Positions 1,145 through 19,841 of a stretch of 19,841 nt of DNA are shown here, piece after piece (within the stretch, counting starts at the first letter, position 1; each line of letters starts with the position of its first letter). Made by a program: the position numbers and the translations under genes. The notes under the pieces are model-generated. The model made no database searches and had not been told where the DNA came from. It saw nothing but the letters and a program-made list of their open reading frames with translations. The stretch comes from a virus (Duplodnaviria > Heunggongvirae > Uroviricota > Caudoviricetes), in IMG/VR virus record IMGVR_UViG_2541047861_000012, positions 1 through 19,841 of that record. One strand, 5' to 3'.

Positions 1145-1289
1145 ATTCATAGTGCAGGGTCAAATCATTCCCACTCAATTATTTACGATAACCATAACCA
1201 ATTGAGTGATAACATTTTTCCAAAGATGAATTTTTCCCATACCGTTTTATATACCGTCACCGGAAATCAGTACCATGAAAAATGCCATG

Positions 1290-3087: not shown

Positions 3088-3368
3088 ACTTTCTCCTGTT
3101 TACTATCTATAAGCCAGTCAATTATTGATGACTAAACCCGCATAGTAAACCATATATGAATCATTATTGTTCCATATCATATATCTCAATAAAAGTACTA
3201 ATTATTTTACAGAACGAGCCAGCAGAGTGGGGGCAGTTGTACAGGAACCATAGACTTAATTTTGTATTTAATAATGCTATGGTGTAATAAACCTGAACAT
3301 GTATTTAAAATACGTACTGATTCATGATAGAATTCAAAGATAACTTTTCACCAACTCCGTTTTTGATA

Positions 3369-3395
3369 CCCGCAAAATATTGCGGGCTTTTTTTT
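3369..3395 (+). terminator. rho-independent terminator oriented for plus-strand transcription
   Basis: 7-bp stem CCCGCAA (3369-3375) / TTGCGGG (3380-3386), loop AATA, then C plus T8 (3388-3395). The minus-strand RNA would have no U-tract after the hairpin (reads UAUCAAAAACGG). Confidence 0.5.
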
Positions 3396-6300
3396 AACGT
3401 TCTTCCAGAGACTGAATCCGCTCTTTTATCTTATCCATTTCTCTGCGCTGCCATGCTGCCTCGATATAGAATAAGAGATCAGGTCTGACCCCCCATCTAG
3501 ATCCTGCTGGCGTTATTTCAACGCGCTCAATGATGTCTTCCATTACCATCACTGGATTATCATCCTCATCAACAATGATGCTCCCGTCATTATCAGTCAG
3601 CTGTATTTCCCTTTGGCCAGTAATGACGTCATCATATACTGCGGGATAATCGTCATAGCAAAGAAAGGCATAGCGGCATGTTGTGCTTTCTTCTTCCATG
3701 AGTCCGTGAGAAATAAGAACATCACGAAGTTGCTGCGCGATTACACCATGATGTATCCTCGCCCCTTCTTCTCCCTTTATAGCGACAGCGTTCAGCCATT
3801 TATAAGCGATATACCTGACGTCACCCCAGGCATCCAGCAATGCTTCGTCAGGAGAGACCGGCTCTGTCTTTAATGTTCCGTCACTGGTAACCACAGGATT
3901 GGAGCCAAGATAAACTGTCGAGAACCTGTTTCCCGGACCACCAAGAGCATTTACATTATCAAGATAAGGTTTAACATCTCCGTTCTCAAAAAGATGTTCG
4001 AGTGCGTTATATACCGCGCGACGTGGAGTACTGCTTCCGGAACCATGCAACGTTATCATTGCACCATCTGCTGAAGACGTTGTTTCACCGCCGCTAACGA
4101 TTAATCTCTGAGCGGTAACATCATCAGACGGTACTTTCTTCGCAATAATGGCGTAATTGCCCTCCAGTTTGACTTCCGCGCGAACTTGTCCTGATGTACC
4201 TGCATGGACAGTCAGTGACTGGACGGCAACATCATCTGTGAAATCAACGGGTACAGGAACCGTCCTCACGCCGGACGTCGACATAAAAGTAGGAAGCGTT
4301 CTGTTAGGAGTGGCTCCGTAGACAAAATCCCTTGAAACAAATTCTTCCTGTTTAATTTTCACCCTGAAACAATACAAATCAGCCGGGTGACCATCGTGAA
4401 CATAAGGATATTTTCTGTTGTTATCCCCTATGCTCCATGGGTTTAGAAAGTCTTCCCCACCGAAAATGTAGTACAGCCAGTTGTCTTTGATACAAACTGA
4501 ACCAACACCAACCGCAGAGTTAACTATTCCGCCCTGATAAATCTGATCAGTAACATTAACCCACTCTACATTATCCAGACTCCACTCATTGACGTTAACT
4601 CTGGTCATAAATGTTCTTGGATAATTTCCTGCATAACGGTTATCAGGTTCTCCTCCTTCCCACTCACCAAATGCGCGCTCACTGCCAAAAATAATCAGCT
4701 CATCGCCAACTTTGGCAAAAGGAAGGTTTGAGTGATGAACATTATTTGGGAAGCGAAGAGAATTCCATGATGCACCTAAATCAGAGCTTCTGTGCAATGA
4801 ACTACCGGGTTGAGTACTTAATGTCCCCCTGGTCGTCAGATACAGAATGCCATCATAATATTTTACACATGGCTCAGATGCATTCGCCTCATATTCTGCA
4901 GGTATGCGTCTGCGAACAAAGCTACCAGGAGAACCGAAAGCATCAGAGAAATAGAGTATCCCAAGCTCGCGTGGACCAATATCACCATTATGGTAGCCAA
5001 CAGCAAAACTGTTATCGCTAATCGTCGCAAAACTGTGAATCTCAGTAACAGGAGTGCTTCCGTCAACAAAAGAAGAAATAGTTCCAAGACTGGTTTTTCT
5101 CCATGGTGACGAGTGAAATGATGTACCAAAACTCCAGTATCTACCCTCGTTATTCTGATCCACATCCTGAGTATTTTGCGTCGTAACTGTAAAAGTATTT
5201 TTATCAATAACAGTAGTCACCGTCATATTCCCGGTAACACCTGTAACACCAGAGTTTGAGAAGTTGACAAAATCACCAGCAAATAATCCGTGATCAGTAA
5301 TGCGAATATAAGCGACTTGCTGATTTGCTGCTTTCGTTATACCACCATAAACGCGAAGGCTGCGACTCATTGGACGATCCCACAACTCTGCAACCTGCAG
5401 TTTATTTCCGCGCACGGTCCGCGTCTCAATTACAGCAAAAAGGCGATTTCTGACAACCCCCATACTCATGCAGTGATAGTTAACTGTGGGATAGTTTTCA
5501 TGTAAATCTGTAAGCCATTCCGGCGTTGTCCAGGTCTTCCCGTCATCTCCTGAGCGAACCCATGCAACATGGAGGTTATTTACACCATGGCGGTCTCCAG
5601 CCATAAAAGGCGCATAGATGACATTGTCATATACAAACGTTTTATCCTGCGTCCAGGCGTTGTACCACGGTGTATCTGTAATTTTAAATAACTCTCCCTG
5701 GATAAAATCTTCAGAAGCATAAAAAAGAGGCTGACCCGGTATTCTCTCAAATAAAAAACGAGCATTTTTAAATCGGCTGACATCCGGAAGAGTTGATACT
5801 TTAAAAGTAAGCCCTAATCCGTCAATTTTATAACCTGGAGATGAGGCTTCAAGGCACGCGCTTATTGCAGTGGAATCGTCATTTATACCATCACCAACAG
5901 CTCCAAAATCTTTGGGGCTAATAGCATCACGCATTTTATCCTGGAACGTTCGGTATACTGCCCCAGAACCATACTGAATAAACCAACCAAAACCACCAAC
6001 AACCCCGGCGATTGCAGCATCGACATAATTACGCATTGAGCGATTATTTACAGCGTCCTGTTCAAGTGATGGATCTGCAAGGTTAGAAATTCTGTTTTGC
6101 TTTGCATCGTAATATTTTGCAAGCAAAGATGGTTTCATCAATGCACGTCTGAACCATCCAAAACATTGCTGGATCAGCATCGTCAGGTAGTCAAAGGCAT
6201 CTTCATGCACTTCGGGGAAAAACTTTCCCTGATTGCGAAGGTCTGTCTCCTGCACTACATCAAGCACACGATCTATCGTAATTCTCCATCCAGTAGCAAG

Positions 6301-6513
6301 CGGCGACGGAAGAACCACAGAACCGCCACTATAAGTGCCCGCCCCAGTTACCGTATAACCGGTATCCAGAACCAATTCTGTTACGTTCCCGTTCAGGTCA
6401 GACACCTGAACAACCAGGTCGGATTTTCTGAAAATTCGAAAAGTATACGGAAACGATGTCGTAACGCCGTTACCGGTGTATTCGTTGTGGTCAACTTCGG
6501 TTGAGACCGTCAT
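3394..6513 (-). CDS. tailspike/tail fibre with depolymerase domain (T7 gp17-like N-terminal anchor, Asp-box sialidase-like region, C-terminal S74 intramolecular-chaperone domain)
   Basis: GGAG 7 nt upstream of ATG 6513; residues about 10-115 resemble the T7 tail-fibre N-terminal particle-binding domain; pectate-lyase-like motif DFGAVGDGINDDSTAISA (201-219); Asp boxes SGDDGKTW (321-328) and SSDLGASW (576-583); predicted autocleavage site VVTS/DG (877/878) followed by a chaperone-like C-terminus. Substrate not determinable by eye. Confidence 0.85.
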   Translation of the reverse strand: MTVSTEVDHNEYTGNGVTTSFPYTFRIFRKSDLVVQVSDLNGNVTELVLDTGYTVTGAGTYSGGSVVLPSPLATGWRITIDRVLDVVQETDLRNQGKFFPEVHEDAFDYLTMLIQQCFGWFRRALMKPSLLAKYYDAKQNRISNLADPSLEQDAVNNRSMRNYVDAAIAGVVGGFGWFIQYGSGAVYRTFQDKMRDAISPKDFGAVGDGINDDSTAISACLEASSPGYKIDGLGLTFKVSTLPDVSRFKNARFLFERIPGQPLFYASEDFIQGELFKITDTPWYNAWTQDKTFVYDNVIYAPFMAGDRHGVNNLHVAWVRSGDDGKTWTTPEWLTDLHENYPTVNYHCMSMGVVRNRLFAVIETRTVRGNKLQVAELWDRPMSRSLRVYGGITKAANQQVAYIRITDHGLFAGDFVNFSNSGVTGVTGNMTVTTVIDKNTFTVTTQNTQDVDQNNEGRYWSFGTSFHSSPWRKTSLGTISSFVDGSTPVTEIHSFATISDNSFAVGYHNGDIGPRELGILYFSDAFGSPGSFVRRRIPAEYEANASEPCVKYYDGILYLTTRGTLSTQPGSSLHRSSDLGASWNSLRFPNNVHHSNLPFAKVGDELIIFGSERAFGEWEGGEPDNRYAGNYPRTFMTRVNVNEWSLDNVEWVNVTDQIYQGGIVNSAVGVGSVCIKDNWLYYIFGGEDFLNPWSIGDNNRKYPYVHDGHPADLYCFRVKIKQEEFVSRDFVYGATPNRTLPTFMSTSGVRTVPVPVDFTDDVAVQSLTVHAGTSGQVRAEVKLEGNYAIIAKKVPSDDVTAQRLIVSGGETTSSADGAMITLHGSGSSTPRRAVYNALEHLFENGDVKPYLDNVNALGGPGNRFSTVYLGSNPVVTSDGTLKTEPVSPDEALLDAWGDVRYIAYKWLNAVAIKGEEGARIHHGVIAQQLRDVLISHGLMEEESTTCRYAFLCYDDYPAVYDDVITGQREIQLTDNDGSIIVDEDDNPVMVMEDIIERVEITPAGSRWGVRPDLLFYIEAAWQRREMDKIKERIQSLEER

Positions 6514-6650
6514 GTTAAATCTCCAGATAGTCGCAGCACCCGTTGCGCCGCATATCTGGTCATTCTATTACCTAAAAAACCACATATGGATAGAAAGACT
6601 GTGAATACGAATAGATATTACCTTTCGGGTAATTTGCAAAACGTGCTGGA

Positions 6651-6687
6651 TAGCAAACAAATTATTTGCTACTGTATAAATATACAG
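6651..6687. promoter_or_regulatory. operator-like tandem inverted repeats upstream of gene 6710-6967
   Basis: TAGCAAA-N7-TTTGCTA (6651-6671) immediately followed by CTGTATA-AA-TATACAG (6672-6687, contains TATAAAT), ending about 10 nt before the GGAG of gene 6710. Confidence 0.3.
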
Positions 6688-6709
6688 TTATTGCATGGAG
6701 AATATTAAG

Positions 6710-6967
6710 ATGCAGCAGTATCACTATCCACTGGAAGACGGATTTACCGAAAGGATTCACACGCCGGGAGGCGTCAGGTCACTGGTGGAGGGATCGCACT
6801 TGATGAAATTACTCCGGGATCTCGATAAGGATGGATTTAATGTCGATGGCCCACTTGCCGAACTGACTGCACTGATTAACTACGTCACCAGCTCACAGAT
6901 GTCTATGCAGGATCTGCAAACACATCTCGACTATTGTGCCGAACAATTACGAAAACAAACCAGATAA
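6710..6967 (+). CDS. small stand-alone homologue of the antirepressor C-terminal module
   Basis: GGAG at 6697-6700, 9 nt before ATG 6710 (the in-frame ATG at 6695 has no SD); 85 aa; SHLMKLLRDLDKDGFNVDGPLAELTALINYV...MQDLQTHLDY aligns with the shared C-terminus of 7283-7978 and 8987-9925 (SLLMNLLNQLQEDGHDVSGAAAELTTMFCYIV...LRDIQTHAEY). Confidence 0.55.
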   Translation: MQQYHYPLEDGFTERIHTPGGVRSLVEGSHLMKLLRDLDKDGFNVDGPLAELTALINYVTSSQMSMQDLQTHLDYCAEQLRKQTR

Positions 6968-6997
6968 GATTTGAAATTACCAATAGGAGTGCTTATA

Positions 6998-7014
6998 TTT
7001 ACCTTTGCGGTAAA
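6998..7014. promoter_or_regulatory. operator-like palindrome TTTACC-N5-GGTAAA (copy 1)
   Basis: TTTACC (6998-7003), TTTGC, GGTAAA (7009-7014), nested inside a longer inverted repeat GGAGTGC (6986-6992) / GCACTCC (7023-7029). Identical half-sites recur at 8151-8167. Confidence 0.3.
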
Positions 7015-7105
7015 TTTACATCGCACTCCTCTTGTGCCATAGTAATCGGGCACTGGCAAAATCCAGTGCCGGGATTGGCGTCCCGGATTACTAAAAGGCG
7101 CATTC

Positions 7106-7125
7106 ACCGCGCAAGCGGTTTTTTT
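7106..7125 (+). terminator. weak rho-independent terminator in the leader of the Bro-N antirepressor gene
   Basis: Short stem ACCGC (7106-7110) / GCGGT (7115-7119), loop GCAA, then a T-run to 7125; preceded by hairpins at 7049-7070 and 7069-7086 that share bases. Confidence 0.3.
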
Positions 7126-7282
7126 ATGCGTATAGCACGGCCACATTCGTATTATGGTGGGCTGTGTGGGGGCACCGAAAGGTGCGCCGGGTCCTTTTAG
7201 CCGGTTACGCCAACCCTGCACAGTTCACCACCAACCGATTGGCGTCGGTAGTGGTGATTAACCAGACTAAAAGGTAACCACT

Positions 7283-7978
7283 ATGACAGCTACAAAAAGC
7301 ACGTCCATTTTTTCTTTCGAATCCCAAGCCGATATACGGGTAATCGTCATTAATGGTGAGCCATGGTTTATCGCTTCAGATGTTTGTCGGGCTATAGGCA
7401 TAGCAAACCATCGAGATGCTGTTCGAAAACTTGATGATGATGAGAAGGGCGTCGCTTCAACCGACACCCCTGGCGGTGAGCAAGAATCGATCATCATCTC
7501 CGAGTCAGGCCTCTACACACTGATCCTCCGCTGCCGCGACGCAGTGACACCAGGCACTATCCCCTACCGCTTTCGTAAATGGGTTACAGGTGAGGTTCTT
7601 CCTCAGATCCGCCGCACCGGAAGTTACATTAAAAACTCGCTCCCGCAGGAAGAACGCATAAAGATGGTTGCCGACCAGGTAGCCAACGCCACAGCATCAG
7701 CAGTGATGCAGGCAATGAAGATAGAGAACAAAACCTACAGTGCCCCGCTGAAGCCCGGCTACCGCAGTTTGATTCACTCGCCGTCTGGTGTTCTCGGCCT
7801 GACGGAGAACTCACTGCTGATGAATTTGCTGAACCAGTTACAGGAAGACGGGCATGACGTATCGGGCGCGGCGGCGGAACTGACCACCATGTTCTGCTAC
7901 ATCGTCGGTGTGAGTAAATGCCTGCGTGATATCCAGACTCACGCGGAGTACATCAACGACAAAGCAGGATTCTTCTGA
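7283..7978 (+). CDS. antirepressor-like protein (Bro-N N-terminal domain plus shared antirepressor C-terminal module)
   Basis: AAGG about 8 nt upstream of ATG 7283; Bro-N signature FESQADIRVIVINGEPWFIASDVCRAIG...ESGLYTLILRCRDAVTPGTIPYRFRKWVTGEVLPQIRRTG; last 77 residues identical to those of 8987-9925. Confidence 0.8.
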   Translation: MTATKSTSIFSFESQADIRVIVINGEPWFIASDVCRAIGIANHRDAVRKLDDDEKGVASTDTPGGEQESIIISESGLYTLILRCRDAVTPGTIPYRFRKWVTGEVLPQIRRTGSYIKNSLPQEERIKMVADQVANATASAVMQAMKIENKTYSAPLKPGYRSLIHSPSGVLGLTENSLLMNLLNQLQEDGHDVSGAAAELTTMFCYIVGVSKCLRDIQTHAEYINDKAGFF

Positions 7979-8000
7979 CGGGCGGCGGCACAGGGATGTG
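7745..8000. repeat. inverted repeat copy A (3' end of gene 7283-7978 plus about 22 bp)
   Basis: Reverse complement matches 8964-9220 at about 93% identity (16 mismatches in the 231 coding nt plus one indel in the 3' flank). Similarity begins exactly at the first codon of the shared 77-aa module. Confidence 0.85.
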
Positions 8001-8206: not shown

Positions 8207-8842
8207 ATGCCACAACAACTGCTGAATCCGGCAAAGGTAACTGAGGTTTTCGCTCATCTGAACGAAACTCCAGACAACCGCGCCCTGTATTCAGAGTTAG
8301 TGAACGGCAACGATGTCACATCTGATGTCAAAGGCGTTTCTCTGGCTCCTGGATACCGCGTTGTCCGTGTAGACGATCGTAAGAAAGGCGAGATTCCACA
8401 GGCGCACTTTGAACTGTCATTGATAAATGACCTCACCGAAGAGGTAGTGTATTACAATCGTGTCATTATCCAGCCTGACAGCTATCTTAACTGCCGTCCT
8501 GTCACGCAGATATTGGTATGGAGAACCCAGAAGCCTAAGCATCGTGCTGTGCTTCATGATTTCGCTGGCATCATCTTCATGAACTACCTCTTGGAACGGT
8601 ACGATATCATCGTGTCTGATCGCAACCAGACTCATGAAGGCATGTCGTTCTGGCAGGCTCGCATGTATGACGCACTGGAACTTGGCCTCCATCTCTATGG
8701 TTACGACATGATGACATGCGAACTTATAGAGATGAATAACGAGGAAGAACTTGAGAAAGGTGAAACCTGGTTGTGGGGTGATGCGGAAAACTTCCAAAAC
8801 AGATTGGCCATAATTTCAAAGCATAAGCTGCCAATAAAATAG
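8207..8842 (+). CDS. hypothetical protein, 211 aa, no recognisable domain (orphan moron between the two antirepressor genes)
   Basis: ATG 8207 with GAGG SD 6 nt upstream; uninterrupted 211-codon ORF; no TM segment or signal peptide; own strong terminator at 8851-8871; lies inside the segment bracketed by the 256-bp inverted repeat. Confidence 0.7.
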   Translation: MPQQLLNPAKVTEVFAHLNETPDNRALYSELVNGNDVTSDVKGVSLAPGYRVVRVDDRKKGEIPQAHFELSLINDLTEEVVYYNRVIIQPDSYLNCRPVTQILVWRTQKPKHRAVLHDFAGIIFMNYLLERYDIIVSDRNQTHEGMSFWQARMYDALELGLHLYGYDMMTCELIEMNNEEELEKGETWLWGDAENFQNRLAIISKHKLPIK

Positions 8843-8963: not shown

Positions 8964-9220
8964 CACGTCCCTGTGCCGCCGTTCTGTCAGAAGAACCCTG
9001 CCTTGTCGTTGATGTATTCCGCGTGCGTCTGGATATCACGCAGGCATTTGCTCACACCAACGATGTAGCAGAACATGGTGGTCAGCTCCGCCGCCGCGCC
9101 CGATACATCGTGCCCGTCTTCCTGTAACTGGTTCAGCAGATTCATCAGCAGTGAGTTCTCCGTCAGGCCGAGAACACCCGACGGCGAATGAATCAGACTG
9201 CGGTAGCCTGGCTTCAATGG
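8964..9220. repeat. inverted repeat copy B (3' end of gene 8987-9925 plus about 23 bp)
   Basis: Partner of 7745-8000; see copy A. Confidence 0.85.
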
Positions 9221-9925
9221 ATAACCATAACATTTTGTCTGTGTTTTAATTGCCTCACGAAGCGCATCTAACATCTTGACTGCCACTTCATCATTCTCTG
9301 ATGCAGATCCAGCAGGGAGATACTCCCCTTCAAGCGGAACCCGAGCAACAAGAGACAACGCTTCGGCAAATTGATCTTCACCAATTTCTTTGTACGAACA
9401 GCCAAAATGAGATTTCAGTGACGACCACATGGTGATCATCGCCTTAGCCTGTTTTTCTTTTGGCAGAGACTGACCGCGACTCATGACGAGTTGTTTAATG
9501 GCTTCCTGCTGTTCAGTTGTTATTTTACCCGGCAACGCCTTTTTAGCTTTGCGTGGGTTAACCACATGGCCTTTAGTCCAGTACTCGTAGAGCACATCGT
9601 CACACTCTTCCTGATACTGGATTACCTTGTCGCGGATTTCAGGGCGGACTTTGTTAGGGCTGATGCTGTTCAACCAAGCTGCCAATTTTCGTAAAGCCAT
9701 ACAAATCATGGCTTGCACCCCACCGGCAGAAGGTATGGTGATTTCCACCATACCCTTCGAGAAGCGTTGAGAAATCTTCTTATGTTGAGATTTCCAGTCT
9801 AGCCCCATTCCCTCAACGATAGGTTTCATTGGGGTATACGGTTCGCCGTTGTGATTGACAACATAAAGCTCTGCGCCGTGGAATGGCACGTTGATAGTAG
9901 ATACTGCTGTTGCTATACTCGTCAT
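8987..9925 (-). CDS. ant: antirepressor (Ant-like; AntA/P22-Ant-type N-terminal domain plus shared C-terminal module)
   Basis: 312 aa; follows the arc-like gene on the same strand after a 72-bp spacer; N-terminal region INVPFHGAELYVVNHNGEPYTPMKPIVEGMGLDWKSQHKKI resembles phage antirepressor N-terminal domains; C-terminal 77 aa identical to 7283-7978. The symbol is given by position and domain analogy to P22 ant. Confidence 0.8.
   Translation of the reverse strand: MTSIATAVSTINVPFHGAELYVVNHNGEPYTPMKPIVEGMGLDWKSQHKKISQRFSKGMVEITIPSAGGVQAMICMALRKLAAWLNSISPNKVRPEIRDKVIQYQEECDDVLYEYWTKGHVVNPRKAKKALPGKITTEQQEAIKQLVMSRGQSLPKEKQAKAMITMWSSLKSHFGCSYKEIGEDQFAEALSLVARVPLEGEYLPAGSASENDEVAVKMLDALREAIKTQTKCYGYPLKPGYRSLIHSPSGVLGLTENSLLMNLLNQLQEDGHDVSGAAAELTTMFCYIVGVSKCLRDIQTHAEYINDKAGFF
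9891..9919 (+). promoter_or_regulatory. candidate sigma70 promoter for an antisense (sar-like) RNA
   Basis: -35 TTGATA (9891-9896), 17-bp spacer, -10 TATACT (9914-9919); predicted start near 9926, i.e. opposite the ant start codon (9923-9925). Confidence 0.4.
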
Positions 9926-9999: not shown

Positions 10000-10165
10000 A
10001 TGCCACGCTATTCTTCTCACCAGTGAGTCCATACACTTTCCTCAGCTGATAGATAATCTCTGTATTGAACTTTCGGCATTCTTTTTCGCCATTTCTTTCA
10101 ATAGCTAACTTCACATCGTCCGGAAAACGAACTCGTCGTTGACACATCTCTTTTGCTTTTTGCAT
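9998..10165 (-). CDS. arc: Arc-like ribbon-helix-helix repressor
   Basis: AAGGAG SD 7 nt upstream of ATG 10165 (the longer ORF from 10186 lacks an SD); 55 aa MQKAKEMCQRRVRFPDDVKLAIERNGEKECRKFNTEIIYQLRKVY... matches the Arc/MetJ RHH pattern (compare P22 Arc RWPREV...NGRSVNSEIYQRV); first gene of an arc-ant operon. Confidence 0.8.
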   Translation of the reverse strand: MQKAKEMCQRRVRFPDDVKLAIERNGEKECRKFNTEIIYQLRKVYGLTGEKNSVA

Positions 10166-10179
10166 TTCATATCTCCTTA

Positions 10180-10248
10180 GCCCCACCGTGGGGCAAAATA
10201 ATTGTCACACCGTGCGTCATTGATGTCAAGCACACGGTGAGGCATACT
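10180..10248. promoter_or_regulatory. immI-type control region: overlapping divergent promoters with repeated CACCGTG/CACGGTG operator heptads
   Basis: Near-palindrome GCCCCACCGTGGGGC (10180-10194); CACCGTG at 10208-10214; CACGGTG at 10233-10239; a fourth copy GCCACCGTGGGGC at 9976-9988. Minus-strand promoter: -35 TTGACA (complement of 10224-10229), -10 GACAAT (complement of 10201-10206). Plus-strand promoter: -35 TTGATG (10220-10225), -10 CATACT (10243-10248). The heptad core matches the CCACGGTGG core I recall for the P22 Mnt operator. Confidence 0.55.
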
Positions 10249-10285
10249 TCAATCATTGCAAGTAACTCAATATTTGGTGAAGAAC

Positions 10286-10717
10286 ATGAGCAGAGAAGAT
10301 CCACAACTAAGGATCAGACTTCCCGTCGAAGTAAAAGAAAAAATAGAAATTTCTGCAAAAGCCAATAAGCGATCAATGAACGCTGAAATAGTACAACGTC
10401 TTGACACCAGCTTTCTGAAAGATATTCATGAAGATGACGTAATTTCTGCTTATGAAGCAAAAATCATTGCAAACAATGCACGACATGAAATATCAAATAT
10501 TATTTTCAAAAGAACCTTTAATGAAATTAATAAGAAAATAACACTTGGACATACAAGTTTTTATATAAACCTTAATGACCTTGAACTGGAATCACTTGCA
10601 GATAATGATTACCAGATCATCTTTGAAAAAACATTTAATAGGCTCAATGAACTAGGTTACATCATCTGTGAAAACTCATGGGATGCAGATGGTTTTGGAA
10701 TTGAAATACCTGAATAG
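10286..10717 (+). CDS. mnt: Mnt-like ribbon-helix-helix repressor with a novel C-terminal extension (chimeric)
   Basis: ATG 10286 preceded by GGTGA (the ORF track begins at TTG 10256); N-terminus MSREDPQLRIRLPVEVKEKIEISAKANKRSMNAEIVQRL closely parallels P22 Mnt (ARDDPHFNFRMPMEVREKLKFRAEANGRSMNSELLQIV); 143 aa versus 83 aa for Mnt; the extra acidic C-terminal part lies in the AT-rich block. Confidence 0.75.
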   Translation: MSREDPQLRIRLPVEVKEKIEISAKANKRSMNAEIVQRLDTSFLKDIHEDDVISAYEAKIIANNARHEISNIIFKRTFNEINKKITLGHTSFYINLNDLELESLADNDYQIIFEKTFNRLNELGYIICENSWDADGFGIEIPE

Positions 10718-10807
10718 GAAGAACAAAAGGCGTGTACATATTACACGTCTTTAATACAATTGAAAAACGCCACATTACTGATGTATGTTACAACAAGGAG
10801 CGATATT

Positions 10808-11371
10808 TTGAAAACCATATCTATATTAAAGGTTGCATTAGGCGTCGCTATTATTTTGACTCTCTCAATATTGTTTTATTTTTACCACAAACAAACTGCT
10901 ATTGCTCTTGATAGTCACGCGGCAAACTCATTTTTCTCAGAGTACATAGTGCCGCTATCAGGAAGCGGTATAACAAATAAATATACTGACTATGACATCA
11001 AATATGGAATTGATGATGGGGAGACTATTGTATTACATGTAATCATTAAAAACCTAATGACAGTAAATAAAAATACAGACTTCAACGATAAAAATACAAT
11101 ACATCACAACAACAGCAAAACATTAATTTCTTATAGTAGCAACATCTATACGGATAAATACCTAAAATACATATCAGAAGATACAATAAAAGAAACCCGC
11201 GAAAAGTTAAAAAACATATATTGTGCATCCGGCAGTTTTCACAAATTATCGCCGCAAGAGCGTTTATTCTACGAAGCAAGAAAACAACGTAAGTCAATAA
11301 TATTACATTATTATGCTGATTCAGGGGAGACACTCATATTTAATATTGGGGTTTCCCCTGAATCATGCTAA
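10808..11371 (+). CDS. single-pass membrane protein of unknown function in the sieA position (candidate superinfection-exclusion/defence moron)
   Basis: AAGGAG (10795-10800) 7 nt before in-frame TTG 10808; alternative in-frame starts at ATG 10781 and TTG 10760 (ORF track). N-terminal TM helix ISILKVALGVAIILTLSILFYFY then an Asn/Lys/Tyr-rich soluble domain; very low G+C; stop 11 bp from the stop of the convergent 1004-aa gene. Confidence 0.65.
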   Translation: MKTISILKVALGVAIILTLSILFYFYHKQTAIALDSHAANSFFSEYIVPLSGSGITNKYTDYDIKYGIDDGETIVLHVIIKNLMTVNKNTDFNDKNTIHHNNSKTLISYSSNIYTDKYLKYISEDTIKETREKLKNIYCASGSFHKLSPQERLFYEARKQRKSIILHYYADSGETLIFNIGVSPESC

Positions 11372-11382
11372 AGGTGTTTAAC

Positions 11383-14300
11383 TCACCGCATCACCGGATC
11401 CACTTGGTTTATTAGTGGCGCAATCCAGAACAGGTTATTGCCGGGTATCAGGGTTCGGACATTATGCACAATACGATCACCGGCATCACCATTCAACACT
11501 CCTGAGGTCACATCAATGATGCTATCCGCAAGACCAAATGACGGTCCGAATAGAGATCCTACGAATCCACGACTGGCATACCTGGACTGTGTGCCAGTGC
11601 CAAATAAAGCCCCCAGCCCAACAGCACCACCAGTCGCCTTTTCAGCCATGTTGTTATATTCCATCAATGGCCCAAGAATACCGGATCTATCTATACCCTC
11701 AAGCACCAGCTTCTCTGGTGACCAGTCAACATTTTTCCCTTTCGATGCTTCTTTAAGCGCATAGACCAGTGAGCCAAGAGCAATCTGAAATGCAGTGCCA
11801 TAATAAAATTGCGCAGTTCCTTCCTGTAACCCACCAAGTAGCGCACGGTTGTATGAAGCCGTTGTGAATGATTTAAACTGAAATATCGTTCGCCCCATTG
11901 GAGTACTCGCCCATAAAGGTGTGTCACCAATACCGGGGGTGATGATAGTGTTATTAACGTCTTTCAGAACCGCTGACTGGAATACTCCGGCAACGTACTG
12001 ATCGTCCCATTTATCAAAGTTACCAATGTGCCATCCATCAATTACCTCACCATGTTTCTCGAACTCACTGCGAATACGCGCAGCCATATTGTCGTTGATA
12101 CCGAGTTTTGCCATGCGACGTGCAGAAAACGCACCAGACAAAATACCGTCTGACGTGAGCATTCCGTTCATGGATTTGTTTATGTCATTAAATCGATCCA
12201 TGAGTGTCAGCTTGCCGAAGGCATCAGTAATTCGCTCCATTCCTGCTTCGACTGCTGTTGTCCTGGAAGAACTGTCAACAAGATCACCAATTGCACGAGA
12301 ACGTGAATGTAGTACAGTTTCCAATCCAATCCCCATCTTCAACATCTCTTCTTTGCTGGCCTTAAATGCCGGTGATTGGGATATCTGAGAAGCATAGCCT
12401 TTCATGGAGTTACGGAAACCATTAACCATAACCCCTCTGGCCAGATCTGGAATAGCTGATACTGTCATTCCACCGAGTTTGGTCGTGAAGTTCACATCCC
12501 GCAGAAAAGCGCCAGCACGAACAAAAAACGAAGACGGGTCATCAGGCATACCATATGTACCAACAAGACGATCGCGTAATGCTGTTATGTCTCTGAGATC
12601 ATTTGCTCTTGATTTTGAAAGTCTGGACTGTTCTTTCCGTAATTCCTTTTCGTACTTTCGCATTAATGAATCGAGTTTACCCTGAGGAACAACTTCACCA
12701 TTGCTCTCATAACGTGCTTTCAGATTTGCCACACTTTCGTCATATTTCGCCTTTATTTTTTCAGGCACTTCCCGTAACAGACTGTCATATTCGTCCTCAA
12801 TTAATTGCAGACGCTCTGTCATAGTTCGTTTGCCAAATGTTCTCGTCAACTCAATTTCTGCTGCCGCTTCACGGATATGACGTTGTAGAACGTAATTCAC
12901 ATCACTTTCGAGATAATCCCTGATAAGACTATCAGGCACATTTAATGTTCTTTCTTTCGTACTACCTGCGGCTTTTACAGAAAATACGCTGACAAAATCC
13001 TGTGGAACCTTAGCACCAGTAATTTTATTAATTACGATATCCGCTGCAATTTCAGCATCCTCAGGATCCAGTGTTTTATTGCCTCTCGACCACCAGTCAA
13101 CCAAAATACGTCGAAATTTATCGCGTTCACTGATTATTTTTCCAACTTTATATATACGTGGGAAATAGCTTGCCTGGCCTAATGCTTTCAGTTCTTCATC
13201 TGGCGGCAATAAACCAAGCTTTTGCATTTCAACCTTCACCCGATTTAATACAGTTCGCATCGCCTGCGCCGTTTCCTGAACAACAGGATTAGCATGCACA
13301 TCACCGCTTCGCATAGCATTCCCAACCTGCTGACGAAATGAATCAAAACTCATGTCACCACCATCAGCTTTATACTTTGCGTATGCCTGTTTATTTCCGA
13401 CAACAACAGCAGCTTCTTCACGCTGCCATCCACGTGTACGGGTTTCTACAGCTACCGGTGTTTCAATCCCCCTTTCATTTCCTTTAAGGGTGAAATTATT
13501 TTCGGCTAACTCCAGCGTTGTTTTTCGCACTGTCTTGGACGGAGACTCCATTAACCTTGTCAAAGGAGTAAGATAGCTCCCTGCTTTCCATGCAGCCTTT
13601 CCAACCACCCCACCGGAAACAGGGGTTAAATCATCCAGAGTCGCTGTATCAATTTTCATAGCACCAACACTACCACCATCAGAAAGCGAAGCGGCAGCCC
13701 TGTCAGTCGCTGATGTAATGCTCATATTATCAAGAGCATCAGCAACCTCACGCGTGGCTGCAGCCCGGACGGATGGCGAAAGCGCAACACCAGCACTGGC
13801 AAACACGCCGCTCATCATCGCACCCGCTGCAATGTGAGCGGCACTTTCACCCCATGAGCGTGTTATTTGCTGATTATTCAGCACAACCTCGCTTAATGCT
13901 GTACCGGCTGCACCAATCGCAATCTGTGAGCCAATACGCGCCAGTGCCCCTCCTTGAGCACCGGGGATAAACATTGACGCAACAGTAACCGGATCCATTC
14001 CCGCAGCAATACTGGCAAGGGTTCCAACTACGCCAGCATCAGACAATAAACGTCTGTCTTCATTTTCATCATCTATCTGCTGCTTAATCCACGCCGTTTC
14101 CTCTGGCGATCGGGAATCTGCAAATTTCGCCCCCCAGTATTCATAACCGTGCAACTCATTTTTATCAGCATATGGGTTATAACCTTCGACCGGTTCAAAC
14201 TGTCTGGCTGGTCGGAAAAAACCAGCCAGAATATTGTTCTGTCGCATTGCAGCCCCCCATACGGAAGGCTCCGGTGGCAATGGCTCAGGATTAGCCCCTT

Positions 14301-17114: not shown

Positions 17115-17689
17115 CAGTAACCTCCTATTTTGAATCGGGAGTCAGAATTCATAAAACCTGAGTTAGATAACATTGGCGTCCCACCACTAGATGTACTTCC
17201 TTTAGAGAACGGACTCCACGTCCCACCAAACATCTGGTACGCACCGTATGCCTTCAGAGGCGCAGTGAGCAATGTTGTTGCTGCTCCCACATTCCCCTGT
17301 TTACGGGCTGAACTGGCTTCTGCTTTATAGTTGGCAGCCTGAACCTGATAACCGTAAGCCTCGCGTTGCGCGTTATTCACCGTCGTCAGAGAATCAAGAG
17401 CGCCAAACTGGGCAGTGTCGCCAAATATATCCAGCGCGTTACCTGTAGATAAATCAGCGCCGGTAGCCCCCATTGTCGCCGCCTGTGTACCAAGCCGCTG
17501 TCGGGTCTCTCTGCGCCGTTGCTCAGCTTCAGCGTTACCTCTGTTTATTGCATCATTTGCCTGAGCTGTGGCTATATCTGCGTTCGCTTCTGCAACCTTC
17601 GAGGCATACTTTCCCTGTTGGTACTGGGTGTATGCCTGAATGCCACTCATGGCGAGCATTGCGCCACCAGCAATAACCGGATCGCACAT
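17114..17689 (-). CDS. internal virion protein A-like (T7 gp14-like)
   Basis: 191 aa beginning MCDPVIAGGAMLAMSGIQA..., resembling the N-terminus of T7 gp14; Ala/Gln-rich; translationally coupled to neighbours. Confidence 0.65.
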   Translation of the reverse strand: MCDPVIAGGAMLAMSGIQAYTQYQQGKYASKVAEANADIATAQANDAINRGNAEAEQRRRETRQRLGTQAATMGATGADLSTGNALDIFGDTAQFGALDSLTTVNNAQREAYGYQVQAANYKAEASSARKQGNVGAATTLLTAPLKAYGAYQMFGGTWSPFSKGSTSSGGTPMLSNSGFMNSDSRFKIGGY

Positions 17690-18153
17690 TATTTTCTCTC
17701 CATGTGAAATCTGTGGAAATTAAGACCAAGAGCACCATAAGGCGCGGCTTCTTCAAGCCTGAATCCAAGCCAGTGCAGCCATGCTTTGGCAACATGGTTT
17801 CGCTCGTCGACATAGTTTTCCAGGCGCGGATAAACTGCCAGCATCTGCTGCAATACAGGGCGGCAGTGGCGAAGAAATGTCTTCTGATATTTTTCGATAC
17901 GACTGGTTCCGACCAGCCAGGGCGTACCATTGCCACCGATCATTGACGCCGGAGATACGCCAAACATGGTTACCAGTTCTCCGTTCGCAAATCCTGACCA
18001 GGCCATAGTCGCAGTACGCAGACCAACACGCAGCGCATCTTCGGTAGTCATCAGTGATACCGCATACAGTTCGTCAATATCAGCCTGACGAACATCCGGC
18101 AAAATCATCTGAAGATGCTCTTCGGTTGCGGGAATAATTTGAACGTCAATCAT
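17689..18153 (-). CDS. hypothetical virion-module protein (154 aa)
   Basis: Uninterrupted ORF with 1-nt overlaps to both flanking genes in the coupled structural operon; no motif recognised. Confidence 0.6.
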   Translation of the reverse strand: MIDVQIIPATEEHLQMILPDVRQADIDELYAVSLMTTEDALRVGLRTATMAWSGFANGELVTMFGVSPASMIGGNGTPWLVGTSRIEKYQKTFLRHCRPVLQQMLAVYPRLENYVDERNHVAKAWLHWLGFRLEEAAPYGALGLNFHRFHMERK

Positions 18154-19718
18154 CAGAATCCCCCAACAGTAAGGCGAGGAATAACGGCAAGAACAGACAG
18201 CGGCAACGGGTCAAGCTGACGGATTTTTACACGTCCGTTTTTGCCCCAGTTACTGTCCAGTTTCACTTCTACTTTTCCGGTAGCATCATCAACAGGATCA
18301 TCGTAGAACTCGAATTCACGCTGTGGATATTCGTACCATTTACCGCCGGGCGTAGTCGCCCAGATGCCGCGACTGGCATTCACAACCAGAGTAACGGACG
18401 GGATCACCTGTTTTTTGTCCAGCAGCGTTTCCTGTCCGTTAATGTTGATATCCAGTGTTTCGAATTCAGCAGTTATTGGCAGGCCGATGTGCACAACAGC
18501 CCCAGGTGATTCCAGCGTGACGGCACCTCCGGAAACCACTTTCTGTGGCTCAACATTCGCATCAGAAAGAATGTTTACGGTCTGTCCTTCAAGATGAGAC
18601 AGGCCTCCAAATGTCCGGCGCGCCATCTGCCAGTTCGTGGTGGCCGTATTCCTGAGGGATGGCGGGACGTTCCTGTTGGCACGAACCACTACAGCGGTAT
18701 TGCTGGTTACAGAAATAATGTCGCAACGTAATTCTTTTGACACTTCATCGCCAGTATCAGGATCAGTTCCGGTATAAGGGAACTGTAGTTGCGCACCGAC
18801 ATCACTACTGGTGAAGTACGCACCACCAGAAACACTGATTGTATATTCCGCGCGGTAATCCCATTCGCCAGAACCACCAGTGATTGTCATCGTTCTGTCA
18901 GACGTATTTCTTCCATCATAGCTAAGGCCAGAATCAACAAAGAAAGCATCTTCATCGCTGGTAAATAAACGGCTGGACAGTCGCTCGATGTATCTCACTG
19001 TTTGCCCGTTAACGGTTCGGTTAATGACGAAATACACCGCATCTTCATTGCCTTCGCTGATACTGCATGTGCTTTCATATTTTCCGGTACTGGACTGTGG
19101 TGCCCATGCAAAAACCTGTTGATCACGCAAATAGGTCATCACCAGTAATTTACCGTCATCACGAATGCAGAAGGCGCTGGAGTAAGGGACAATAGAGAAG
19201 CACCAGTCAACAATGCTGTGCTTCTGAAAAAGATGATTGGCAAGGATAGTAAGGTCGTTCCCCTGATAGCCGTCAACATCGAATGAGTAGGCCAGATCAC
19301 GGACAACACTGCCTTTCTCCTGGACGAACAGAGCAATATTCGCCACGGCAATTGGTGGGACATTGCTCGAGCCATTTGATCCCTGAGAGCTGAATGCAAA
19401 TGATGATGGGGTTAACACTTTGTTCTGGTCGCCGGTGATGACGTACTCACCTCCGGAAGTCAGTGCCACCAGCGAACCGACATCAATCAGGTGGCGGATC
19501 TCATTAACCTGACGCCCGGCATAGGTGTAGATAATTCTGTCGTCATCCTGCGTAGGATTGCTTTTGCCAAAATCCTTATAATCCCCGGTACGGCTGGCCC
19601 AGATAGTCTGAGGGAACGCAGTCGATGCGGCGAAGTAAAGACGTTGTTGATAATAAACAACAGTGCCAGGATAACCATTAACACTGTTCCAGGCATATTT
19701 AGCCCATTTATAGCTGGC
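18153..19718 (-). pseudogene. podovirus tail gene (gp12-like position), 5'-truncated by IS insertion
   Basis: Open frame of about 521 codons runs from the IS junction at 19718/19719 to stop 18153; the first 31 codons of the reported ORF 18153-19811 are read from IS sequence, so the native start and N-terminal part are missing from this side of the IS. Confidence 0.7.
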
Positions 19719-19841
19719 TGAACCGCCCCGGGAATCCTGGAGACTAAACTTCCTGAGAAAGAGGTAAACAGGATGACTAAAAATACTCGTTTTTCCCCCG
19801 AAGTCCGTCAACGGGCAGTCCGTATGGTTCTGGAAAGTCAG
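19719..19841 (+). mobile_element. IS3-family insertion sequence (IS629/IS1203-like), left end, continues beyond window
   Basis: Terminal sequence TGAACCGCCCCGGGAATCCTGGAGACTAAACTTCCTGAGAAAGAGGTAAACAGG begins with the IS3-family TG end and matches the IS629-type left inverted repeat as I recall it; followed by orfA. Confidence 0.8.
19773..19841 (+). CDS. IS3-family transposase OrfA, N-terminal 23 codons (partial)
   Basis: ATG 19773; translation MTKNTRFSPEVRQRAVRMVLESQ is the characteristic N-terminus of IS629-group OrfA (helix-turn-helix region); truncated by the window end. Confidence 0.8.
   Translation, partial: MTKNTRFSPEVRQRAVRMVLESQ

What the first reader, a model, noticed from the sequence alone, without database searches (positions are those of the whole stretch)
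3394..6513. Mosaic depolymerase tailspike with T7-type anchor, Asp-box motifs and S74 chaperone domain
The 1039-aa protein combines an N-terminal domain resembling the T7 tail-fibre particle-binding region, a pectate-lyase-like GDG motif (201-219), two sialidase-type Asp boxes (321-328, 576-583) and a C-terminal intramolecular chaperone with a likely Ser/Asp autocleavage site at 877/878. This domain combination is the one known for capsule-degrading endosialidase tailspikes, so the prophage probably targets a capsule or O-antigen. That would be informative about the host serotype range.
Basis: partly seen in the sequence, partly recalled or inferred. Interest (0 to 1): 0.5.

Follow-up and report, generated by a model that had tools for sequence, protein, structure and literature searches.

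The report
K1-capsule endosialidase tailspike of an epsilon15-like prophage

Summary
The 1039-aa ORF is real, but it lies on the minus strand (3394..6513).

It is a bona fide GH58-type endosialidase tailspike:
- Four endosialidase Pfam domains plus Peptidase_S74 all score above threshold.
- It is 62% identical to the crystallised K1F endosialidase over residues 196-1039.
- All catalytic residues and the Ser/Lys autocleavage dyad are conserved.

The N-terminal about 195 aa form the epsilon15/phiV10-type (Uetakevirus) anchor, about 70% identical to epsilon15 gp20. Its link to T7 gp17 is sub-threshold by sequence. A predicted beta-sandwich does match T7 gp17 N-terminal structures.

The same protein occurs elsewhere:
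- It is 100% identical at DNA level in E. coli genomes named K1, where RefSeq annotates it as an endosialidase.
- It is 99.4% identical in the isolated temperate phage vB_EcoP_ZX5, which was grown on a K1 host. Its 2022 paper describes the same three-part architecture.

The one added observation concerns the experimentally characterised CUS-3 endosialidase gene. Codons 233-1025 are about 99% nucleotide-identical to it, while the flanks are only about 56% identical. Both genes co-reside in some chromosomes. This suggests recent exchange between two unrelated K1 prophages.

Verdict: observation confirmed, interpretation supported and sharpened (K1 capsule, not O-antigen), already known, low interest.

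The parts
3394..6513 (-). Complete tailspike CDS, 1039 aa plus TAA stop
   Evidence: ORF list and translation. It is 100% nucleotide-identical to RefSeq genes annotated 'endosialidase catalytic beta-propeller domain-containing protein'.
6521..6524 (-). GGAG ribosome-binding site, 9 nt upstream of the ATG
   Evidence: Upstream sequence read.
5929..6513 (-). N-terminal particle-binding anchor, aa 1-195, epsilon15/phiV10 (Uetakevirus) type. It contains a beta-sandwich (aa 8-88) followed by helices.
   Evidence: About 70% identical to epsilon15 and phiV10 tailspikes over aa 1-165. It matches the PDB Carin-1 tail-fibre protein Dpo31 (8ck1) at E 1.8e-35. In the AF2 model, aa 8-88 have pLDDT of about 90. 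Foldseek hits are Carin-1 8ck1_B at 6.7e-11 and T7 gp17 N-terminus 7boz_a at 2.6e-4, with 7ey9_a at rmsd 2.1 A over 83 columns. The 5' flank plus codons 1-199 are 96.9% nucleotide-identical to Uetakevirus phiv142-3.
5857..5913 (-). KDFGAVGDGINDDSTAISA motif (aa 201-219), lying in the linker between the two modules
   Evidence: The G-D-G..D-D residues are invariant in the alignment with CUS-3, K1F and phiv142-3. The Pect-lyase match is sub-threshold and covers only this motif.
5701..5901 (-). Endosialidase N-terminal extension (aa 205-271)
   Evidence: PF12218, E 5.9e-32.
4351..5700 (-). Six-bladed beta-propeller catalytic domain (aa 272-721). Predicted catalytic residues are H309, R515, E547, R562 and R613.
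   Evidence: PF12217, E 3.6e-232. It is 70% identical to endoNF. Residue mapping is; residue roles come from PMC12632334.
5530..5553 (-). Asp box 1, SGDDGKTW (aa 321-328)
   Evidence: It aligns with SGDDGQTW of endoNF.
5119..5367 (-). Beta-barrel domain inserted in the propeller (aa 383-465)
   Evidence: PF12195, E 3.2e-46.
4765..4788 (-). Asp box 2, SSDLGASW (aa 576-583)
   Evidence: It aligns with SRDIGQTW of endoNF.
3886..4350 (-). Stalk / tail-spike domain (aa 722-876)
   Evidence: PF12219, E 8.5e-78. It is 56% identical to endoNF.
3880..3885 (-). Predicted autocleavage site, S877 | D878
   Evidence: Aligns to endoNF S911/N912, and K882 aligns to K916. The processed crystal chains end at the residue aligned to T876. 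The Ser/Lys dyad role is described in PMC3742443.
3397..3885 (-). C-terminal intramolecular chaperone / autoprocessing domain (aa 877-1039)
   Evidence: Peptidase_S74 covers 877-937, E 1.7e-10. PDB 3gw6 (endoNF chaperone construct) aligns to 757-1038, E 2.9e-94.
3439..5817 (-). Tract of codons 233-1025 that is 97.5-99.7% nucleotide-identical to CUS-3 siaK1. The homologous flanks are only 56-57% identical.
   Evidence: blastn and codon-block identities.
1163..1179 (-). att core ATTGAGTGGGAATGATT of the phiV10/epsilon15/ZX5 integrase system. It marks the prophage end next to host yfgI.
   Evidence: Exact match; 0.02 expected by chance. The att sequence is taken from PMC9782041. Host genes yfgH and yfgI are annotated in the matching genome.
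18153..19811 (-). C-terminal part of the tail nozzle protein, the likely docking partner of the anchor. The gene runs off the window end.
   Evidence: PDB 8ck1_A, the Carin-1 tail nozzle, matches at E 8.8e-133. The same PDB entry holds the tail-fibre N-terminus homologous to the anchor.

Best explanation
The gene encodes the single tailspike of an epsilon15-like (Uetakevirus) temperate podovirus, integrated beside yfgI in an E. coli chromosome.

Inferred mechanism, by homology to K1F endoNF and CUS-3:
1. The polypeptide trimerises under the guidance of its C-terminal chaperone domain (aa 877-1039).
2. Once folded, the chaperone cuts itself off after S877, using a Ser877/Lys882 dyad.
3. The mature trimer (aa 1-877) docks on the tail nozzle/adaptor through its N-terminal beta-sandwich anchor (aa 8-88) and helical shaft.
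4. The beta-propeller (catalytic H309, R515, E547, R562, R613), the inserted beta-barrel and the stalk bind and processively cleave alpha-2,8-polysialic acid. This lets the virion tunnel through the K1 capsule.

What is shown here: the domain architecture, residue conservation, the fold-level relation of the anchor, prophage context and distribution. What is inferred: enzyme activity, autoprocessing and docking geometry.
For: - Pfam endosialidase domains and S74 are all above threshold.
- PDB endoNF chains match at E=0 over 205-876, and the chaperone structure 3gw6 matches at E 2.9e-94.
- The protein is 62% identical to K1F gp17 over 196-1039.
- Catalytic residues and cleavage-dyad residues are all conserved. 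Their roles come from PMC12632334 and PMC3742443.
- Codons 233-1025 are about 99% nucleotide-identical to CUS-3 siaK1, whose record cites experimental endo-alpha-sialidase activity.
- The protein is 99.4% identical to ORF7 of the viable phage vB_EcoP_ZX5, a Uetakevirus with a K1 host.
- The gene is 100% identical in genomes named K1.
- The anchor is about 70% identical to epsilon15 and phiV10 tailspikes. Its modelled beta-sandwich matches the Carin-1 and T7 gp17 N-termini.
- The neighbouring nozzle gene is homologous to the Carin-1 nozzle from the same solved assembly.
- The window also holds a T7 gp14-family core protein, an SLT-domain internal protein, a lysis cassette and the phiV10-type att core.
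Against: - No biochemical test was possible.
- The capsule genes of the window's own host are not visible in 19.8 kb.
- Only part of the prophage is seen, so its inducibility is unknown.
- Two endoNF residues that I recall as substrate-contacting differ: K410->G369 and Q853->M819. The same substitutions occur in the active CUS-3 enzyme.
- The anchor model is confident only for aa 8-128. The rest is below pLDDT 50 as a monomer.
Confidence: 0.93

Rival explanations
1. It is the tailspike of a CUS-3/P22-like (Lederbergvirus) K1 prophage, not of an epsilon15-like one.
For: Residues 193-1039 are 95% identical to the CUS-3 endosialidase.
Against: - The CUS-3 N-terminal head-binding region does not align with aa 1-190.
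- The 5' flank and codons 1-199 match Uetakevirus phiv142-3 at 96.9%.
- The att core is the phiV10/epsilon15 one.
- The surrounding lysis and virion genes match ZX5 and the Carin-1 type nozzle.
Confidence: 0.02
2. The gene is an inactive remnant in a decaying prophage: a domesticated or silent copy that no longer builds virions.
For: Only part of the prophage is visible. Related genomes carry IS elements in this region.
Against: - The ORF is intact, with an RBS.
- All catalytic and processing residues are kept.
- It differs by only 6 aa from the tailspike of the plaque-forming phage ZX5.
- It is identical across many genomes.
- The contiguous virion and lysis genes are intact.
Confidence: 0.07
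3. The enzyme is an endosialidase homologue with altered specificity. For example, it might prefer O-acetylated K1 polysialic acid or the K92 alternating alpha-2,8/2,9 polymer, rather than plain K1.
For: Stalk and propeller residues that I recall as substrate-contacting in endoNF differ (Q853->M819, K410->G369). There is also a 7-aa insertion at aa 481-487 relative to endoNF. The near-identical CUS-3 enzyme comes from a phage that also carries the capsule O-acetyltransferase neuO.
Against: The core catalytic set is intact. ZX5 grows on a K1 strain. CUS-3 siaK1 is annotated with direct evidence of endo-alpha-sialidase activity.
Confidence: 0.1

Closest known systems
ORF7 tail protein of Escherichia phage vB_EcoP_ZX5 (MW722083; Uetakevirus; Li et al. 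2022, PMC9782041)
   Same: It is 1039 aa and 99.4% identical, with 6 substitutions. The gene neighbourhood is the same: an upstream hypothetical gene and a downstream holin/endolysin/spanin cassette. The DNA is 99.2% identical over 3.9 kb. The paper describes the same three parts: a T7-like N-terminus, an endosialidase middle and a chaperone C-terminus.
   Different: The six substitutions are R141K, L150F, S480P, A581T, I970M and Q971P. The accessory region upstream of the tailspike differs between the window and ZX5.
CUS-3 endosialidase tailspike SiaK1 (CP000711; P22-like prophage of E. coli K1 RS218)
   Same: The catalytic propeller, barrel, stalk and chaperone domains match. Codons 233-1025 are 97.5-99.7% nucleotide-identical. 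The same residues differ from endoNF in both proteins.
   Different: CUS-3 has a P22-type head-binding N-terminus in place of the epsilon15-type anchor. The linker (codons 200-232) and the last 14 codons are only about 56% nucleotide-identical. CUS-3 has neuO, with heptanucleotide repeats, directly downstream. The window has a lysis cassette there and no such repeats.
Endosialidase endoNF, gp17 of coliphage K1F (PDB 1v0e, 3gvl, 3gw6; GH58)
   Same: It is 62% identical over residues 196-1039. Domain order, both Asp boxes, catalytic residues and the Ser/Lys cleavage dyad are the same.
   Different: K1F carries a true T7 gp17-type N-terminus of about 240 aa; the anchor regions are 25% identical in a forced global alignment. 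Other differences are a 7-aa insertion at aa 481-487, D instead of N after the cleavage serine, and K410->G and Q853->M.
Tailspike gp20 of Salmonella phage epsilon15 and the tailspike of phiV10 (Uetakevirus)
   Same: The N-terminal phage-binding domain is 68-71% identical over aa 1-165. The att core and integrase system are the same.
   Different: Their receptor-binding parts are O-antigen-specific beta-helix enzymes (an endorhamnosidase/esterase in epsilon15; bioRxiv 10.64898/2026.07.31.742079). They are not endosialidases.
Tail fibre Dpo31 and nozzle of marine podovirus Carin-1 (PDB 8ck1)
   Same: This is the solved homologue of the anchor (E 1.8e-35 over aa 1-210; Foldseek 6.7e-11) and of the neighbouring nozzle protein (E 8.8e-133). 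In Dpo31, the D1 beta-sandwich attaches the spike to the tail (PMC13317679).
   Different: The receptor-degrading domain and the host are unrelated.

Membership tests
Bacteriophage endosialidase (endo-N-acetylneuraminidase, GH58) | Six-bladed beta-propeller catalytic domain of the endosialidase type | tested here: met
   PF12217 covers the full length of the profile (1-367), E 3.6e-232. It is 70% identical to endoNF in this domain.
Bacteriophage endosialidase (endo-N-acetylneuraminidase, GH58) | Catalytic residues equivalent to endoNF H350, R549, E581, R596 and R647 | tested here: met
   H309, R515, E547, R562 and R613 are all conserved. Residue list from PMC12632334.
Bacteriophage endosialidase (endo-N-acetylneuraminidase, GH58) | Beta-barrel insert and stalk (tail-spike) domain | tested here: met
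   PF12195, E 3.2e-46, and PF12219, E 8.5e-78. PDB chains align continuously over 205-876.
Bacteriophage endosialidase (endo-N-acetylneuraminidase, GH58) | Two sialidase Asp boxes (S-x-D-x-G-x-T-W) | tested here: met
   SGDDGKTW at 321 and SSDLGASW at 576, both aligned to the endoNF boxes.
Bacteriophage endosialidase (endo-N-acetylneuraminidase, GH58) | [quoted passage not shown] | not testable with these tools
   Inferred only. The catalytic part is about 99% nucleotide-identical to CUS-3 siaK1, whose record cites direct assay evidence.
Peptidase S74 / C-terminal intramolecular chaperone autoprocessing domain | Domain homology at the C-terminus, directly after a triple-beta-helix stalk | tested here: met
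   PF13884 covers 877-937, E 1.7e-10. PDB 3gw6 aligns to 757-1038, E 2.9e-94.
Peptidase S74 / C-terminal intramolecular chaperone autoprocessing domain | Catalytic Ser and a Lys five residues downstream, plus the essential Gly equivalent to endoNF G956 | tested here: met
   S877, K882 and G923. Roles from PMC3742443. The residue after the Ser is D, as in MYRF, rather than the N of endoNF.
Peptidase S74 / C-terminal intramolecular chaperone autoprocessing domain | Actual self-cleavage and release of the C-terminal fragment | not testable with these tools
   Needs SDS-PAGE or mass spectrometry of the expressed protein.
T7 gp17-type tail-fibre N-terminal domain (Pfam PF03906) | Sequence match above the Pfam gathering threshold | tested here: not met
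   18.2 bits against a cut-off of 25.2, E 0.002, residues 135-161 only. BLASTP against T7 gp17 aligns 22 residues. A 25-sequence profile finds no T7 chain in the PDB at E<=10. None of the listed homologues carries PF03906.
T7 gp17-type tail-fibre N-terminal domain (Pfam PF03906) | Same fold as the gp17 N-terminal beta-sandwich that docks on the adaptor/nozzle | tested here: met
   In the AF2 model, aa 8-88 have pLDDT of about 90. Foldseek hits: 7boz_a at E 2.6e-4 (prob 1.00), 7ey9_a at rmsd 2.1 A over 83 columns, and 9jz0_b at rmsd 2.0 A. Tail-bound fibre N-termini of the LME-1, PhiM1, Kp7, Kp9 and P-SCSP1u phages also match. This rests on a model, at 16-19% identity.
Uetakevirus (epsilon15/phiV10) tailspike anchor | High sequence identity of aa 1-165 to epsilon15 gp20 and the phiV10 tailspike, within a Uetakevirus gene context | tested here: met
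   68-71% identity. The att core and the ZX5 and phiv142-3 flanks agree.
Pectate-lyase-like beta-helix depolymerase (PF12708) | Right-handed beta-helix domain following the GDG motif | tested here: not met
   Only profile positions 5-25 of 213 match, at 14.9 bits against a cut-off of 27. The sequence that follows is the endosialidase N-terminal extension and propeller.

The most novel reading that the evidence does not exclude
The sharply bounded 2.4-kb tract (codons 233-1025) is about 99% identical to CUS-3 siaK1, while its endosialidase-homologous flanks are only about 56% identical. This may be the footprint of recent gene conversion between two unrelated prophages, a P22-like Lederbergvirus and an epsilon15-like Uetakevirus, sitting in the same K1 chromosome. 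On this reading, polylysogeny would homogenise receptor-degrading modules in situ rather than only swapping whole cassettes. The conserved G-x-GDG-x-x-DD linker would lie next to the upstream boundary.
Probability: 0.4. Interest if true: 0.3.

Novelty: already known. Interest (0 to 1): 0.12.

Why it matters
The gene is a dependable marker that this prophage recognises K1-encapsulated E. coli, the capsule type carried here by avian-pathogenic and cerebrospinal-fluid isolates. It adds nothing new to endosialidase biology: the protein, its architecture and a viable phage carrying it are already published and annotated. The only modest extra is the recombination footprint shared with CUS-3. That footprint illustrates how capsule-specific modules move between unrelated prophages of the same host.

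Tried and rejected
- Plus-strand reading of 3394-6513: full of stops. The gene is on the minus strand.
- Direct sequence tests for a T7 gp17 anchor were all sub-threshold or negative. These were Pfam on aa 1-204, BLASTP against T7 gp17, and a 25-sequence profile against PDB sequences. Only the fold comparison linked them.
- The search for homologous proteins with the anchor returned mostly fragments at 52-99% identity, none carrying PF03906. It gave an alignment for modelling but no bridge to T7.
- The Kluyvera protein P0010 has the same anchor and linker and carries a PF12218 label. I examined it as a possible 'unconverted' ancestor. It diverges right after the linker and is only 277 aa, so it was uninformative.
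- A simple two-parent recombinant (phiv142-3 5' part plus CUS-3 3' part) was rejected. Codons about 195-232 and 1026-1039 match neither parent closely.
- A search for a neuO-like heptanucleotide repeat or other capsule-modifying gene next to the tailspike found none.
- NCBIfam gave no relevant model.
- PADLOC on the accessory ORFs gave only one weak TIR-like hit.
- PMC2666599 (the endoNF processing paper) is not held in the library. Residue roles were taken from PMC12632334 and PMC3742443 instead.
- A genome-wide cross-tabulation of this gene against the K1 biosynthesis genes (neuS) was not feasible, because output is limited to 60 rows.
Full report
**Observation**

The window has an uninterrupted 1039-codon ORF at 3394..6513, but on the minus strand. 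The plus-strand translation of these coordinates is full of stops. The ORF starts with ATG, ends with TAA and has a GGAG 9 nt upstream.

- KDFGAVGDGINDDSTAISA at 201-219.
- SGDDGKTW at 321-328 and SSDLGASW at 576-583. These are the only two Asp-box-like matches; 0.05 are expected per shuffled protein.
- S877/D878 within NPVVTS|DGTLK.

**What it is**

Pfam places five domains above their gathering thresholds:

| Domain | Residues | E-value |
|---|---|---|
| End_N_terminal | 205-271 | 5.9e-32 |
| End_beta_propel | 272-721 | 3.6e-232 |
| End_beta_barrel (inserted) | 383-465 | 3.2e-46 |
| End_tail_spike | 722-876 | 8.5e-78 |
| Peptidase_S74 | 877-937 | 1.7e-10 |

Against PDB sequences, the K1F endosialidase chains (1v0e, 3gvl) match at E=0 over residues 205-876. 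The endoNF C-terminal chaperone construct 3gw6 matches at E 2.9e-94 over 757-1038. The full pairwise alignment with K1F gp17 is 62% identical over residues 196-1039. By domain, identity is 70% in the propeller, 56% in the stalk and 54% in the chaperone domain.

The residues that the K1F deep-mutational-scanning paper lists as catalytic are H350, R549, E581, R596 and R647 (PMC12632334). They map to H309, R515, E547, R562 and R613, all conserved.

The Ser/Lys dyad that performs autocleavage in endosialidase chaperone domains (PMC3742443) maps to S877/K882. The essential G956 maps to G923. The processed crystal chains end at the residue aligned to T876.

The central domain is thus an endosialidase propeller, not a non-enzymatic fibre.

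**The N-terminus**

Residues 1-165 are 68-71% identical to the tailspikes of epsilon15, phiV10 and other Uetakevirus phages. More distant relatives occur in Pseudomonas, Xanthomonas, Pelagibacter and Bordetella podoviruses.

The link to T7 gp17 is weak by sequence:
- Pfam Phage_T7_tail scores 18.2 bits against a cut-off of 25.2 (E 0.002), over residues 135-161 only.
- BLASTP against T7 gp17 aligns 22 residues.
- A 25-sequence profile finds no T7 chain in the PDB.

An AlphaFold2 model built with that alignment is confident for a beta-sandwich at residues 8-88 (pLDDT about 90) and a following helix. The remainder is low-confidence as a monomer.

Foldseek against the PDB returns almost only tail-bound N-termini of podovirus fibres:
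- Carin-1 8ck1_B, E 6.7e-11.
- LME-1 and PhiM1.
- T7 gp17 N-terminus: 7boz_a at E 2.6e-4, 7ey9_a at rmsd 2.1 A over 83 columns, and 9jz0_b.
- Kp7, Kp9 and P-SCSP1u.

So 'T7-type anchor' holds at fold level. The domain does not pass the sequence test for membership of PF03906. Its proper name is the epsilon15/phiV10-type anchor.

The partial gene at 18153..19811 is homologous to the Carin-1 tail nozzle (8ck1_A, E 8.8e-133). That is the same solved assembly that contains the anchor's homologue. The Dpo31 paper states that the D1 beta-sandwich attaches the spike to the tail (PMC13317679). The window also encodes a T7 gp14-family core protein and an SLT-domain internal protein. These are consistent with a T7-like tail and ejection apparatus.

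**The 'pectate-lyase-like GDG motif'**

The motif is real. However, the PF12708 match is sub-threshold (14.9 bits against 27) and covers only profile positions 5-25 of 213. The stretch belongs to the endosialidase N-terminal extension.

G-x-GDG-x-x-DD is invariant among this protein, CUS-3, K1F and the unrelated tail fibre of phiv142-3. It sits in the linker where the anchor and catalytic modules meet.

**Context**

The att core of phiV10/epsilon15/ZX5, ATTGAGTGGGAATGATT (PMC9782041), occurs once at 1163-1179. It lies just after host genes yfgH and yfgI. The tailspike is therefore about 2.2 kb inside one prophage end.

Downstream of it, on the minus strand, lie two holin-like genes, a GH19 endolysin and a DUF2514 spanin-like gene. 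Upstream lie a variable accessory region and then the internal-core and nozzle genes.

**Distribution and prior knowledge**

The gene is 100% identical in several complete E. coli genomes, where RefSeq calls it an 'endosialidase catalytic beta-propeller domain-containing protein'. In all, 72 of 5,426 genomes hold at least 80% of it. Carriers include strains named O2:K1:H5 and O2:K1:H7, APEC O1 and a cerebrospinal-fluid isolate.

The isolated temperate phage vB_EcoP_ZX5 (Uetakevirus) encodes a 99.4% identical protein, with 6 substitutions. Its paper describes ORF7 as a T7-like N-terminus, an endosialidase middle and an endosialidase chaperone C-terminus. It reports the host as O87:H52:K1. The finding is therefore already known.

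**Added observation**

At DNA level, the 5' flank and codons 1-199 are 96.9% identical to Uetakevirus phiv142-3, whose tail fibre continues differently.

| Codons | Nucleotide identity to CUS-3 siaK1 |
|---|---|
| 200-232 | 56% |
| 233-1025 | 97.5-99.7% |
| 1026-1039 | 57% |

The two flanks are still endosialidase-homologous. The allele is therefore not a simple phiv142-3 plus CUS-3 recombinant. It looks like an older Uetakevirus-endosialidase fusion whose core was recently exchanged with a CUS-3-type gene, in either direction.

Both tailspike genes co-reside in single chromosomes: FDAARGOS_1303, EC69 and MS20659. That gives the opportunity for exchange. This reading is an inference and was not tested phylogenetically.

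**Verdict**

Enzyme activity, autoprocessing and docking are inferred from close homology, not shown here. Novelty: already known. Interest: low.

Noticed in passing
window 7710-7979 and 8986-9255: A 270-nt inverted repeat, 89% complementary, with arms 1006 nt apart. The arms encode the shared C-terminal ~75-90 aa of two otherwise different antirepressor genes: a Bro-N protein at 7283..7978 (+) and a P22_AR_N protein at 8987..9925 (-). They flank an ORF of unknown function at 8207..8842 (phrog_1349). This could be a recombination or inversion substrate.
   Followed up: partly
window 10000-11400: A low-GC island (0.33-0.37, against about 0.47 elsewhere) between the accessory region and the virion genes. 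It holds an Arc-like DNA-binding protein with a C-terminal extension (10256..10717). It also holds a 203-aa ORF with a hydrophobic N-terminus (10760..11371, phrog_8033), which has only a weak TIR-like/ThsB PADLOC hit (E 0.006). It may be a moron or defence cargo.
   Followed up: partly
window 1163-1179: An exact copy of the phiV10/epsilon15/ZX5 att core ATTGAGTGGGAATGATT. It marks the prophage boundary about 90 nt after the host gene yfgI.
   Followed up: yes
NZ_CP070045.1 (2661024-2661712 and 2827904-2831023); also NZ_CM128670.1 and NZ_CP082073.1: Some chromosomes carry two endosialidase-tailspike prophages at once. One is a CUS-3-type prophage with a P22-like head-binding N-terminus. The other is this Uetakevirus-type one. 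In FDAARGOS_1303 the two genes lie about 167 kb apart.
   Followed up: partly
window 3088-3393 and 6514-7282: Unlike CUS-3, which has the phase-variable capsule O-acetyltransferase neuO directly after its endosialidase gene, this prophage has no such gene beside the tailspike. It also has no heptanucleotide repeat array there. A GC-rich hairpin (3369-3386) sits just past the stop codon. It has a T-run only on the plus strand.
   Followed up: partly
proteins P0001-P0009 (fragments of this same protein in public databases): Truncated copies of this tailspike carry inconsistent source names. Examples are 'glycosyl hydrolase family 28-related protein', 'head-binding protein' and 'peptidase S74'. 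The names depend on which fragment was called.
   Followed up: no
window 18153-19811 and 17114-17689: The ORF at the window end is the C-terminal part of a tail nozzle protein (Carin-1 8ck1_A, E 8.8e-133) and runs off the window. The listed TTG start is therefore not the real start. Next to it are a T7 gp14-family core protein and large internal virion proteins, one with an SLT domain.
   Followed up: partly
protein P0010 (Kluyvera cryocrescens, 277 aa): This protein carries the same anchor and linker, 80% identical over aa 1-204. It is labelled 'N terminal extension of bacteriophage endosialidase', but it diverges immediately after the KDF motif. The anchor-linker unit therefore also occurs outside E. 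coli, with a different distal part.
   Followed up: partly
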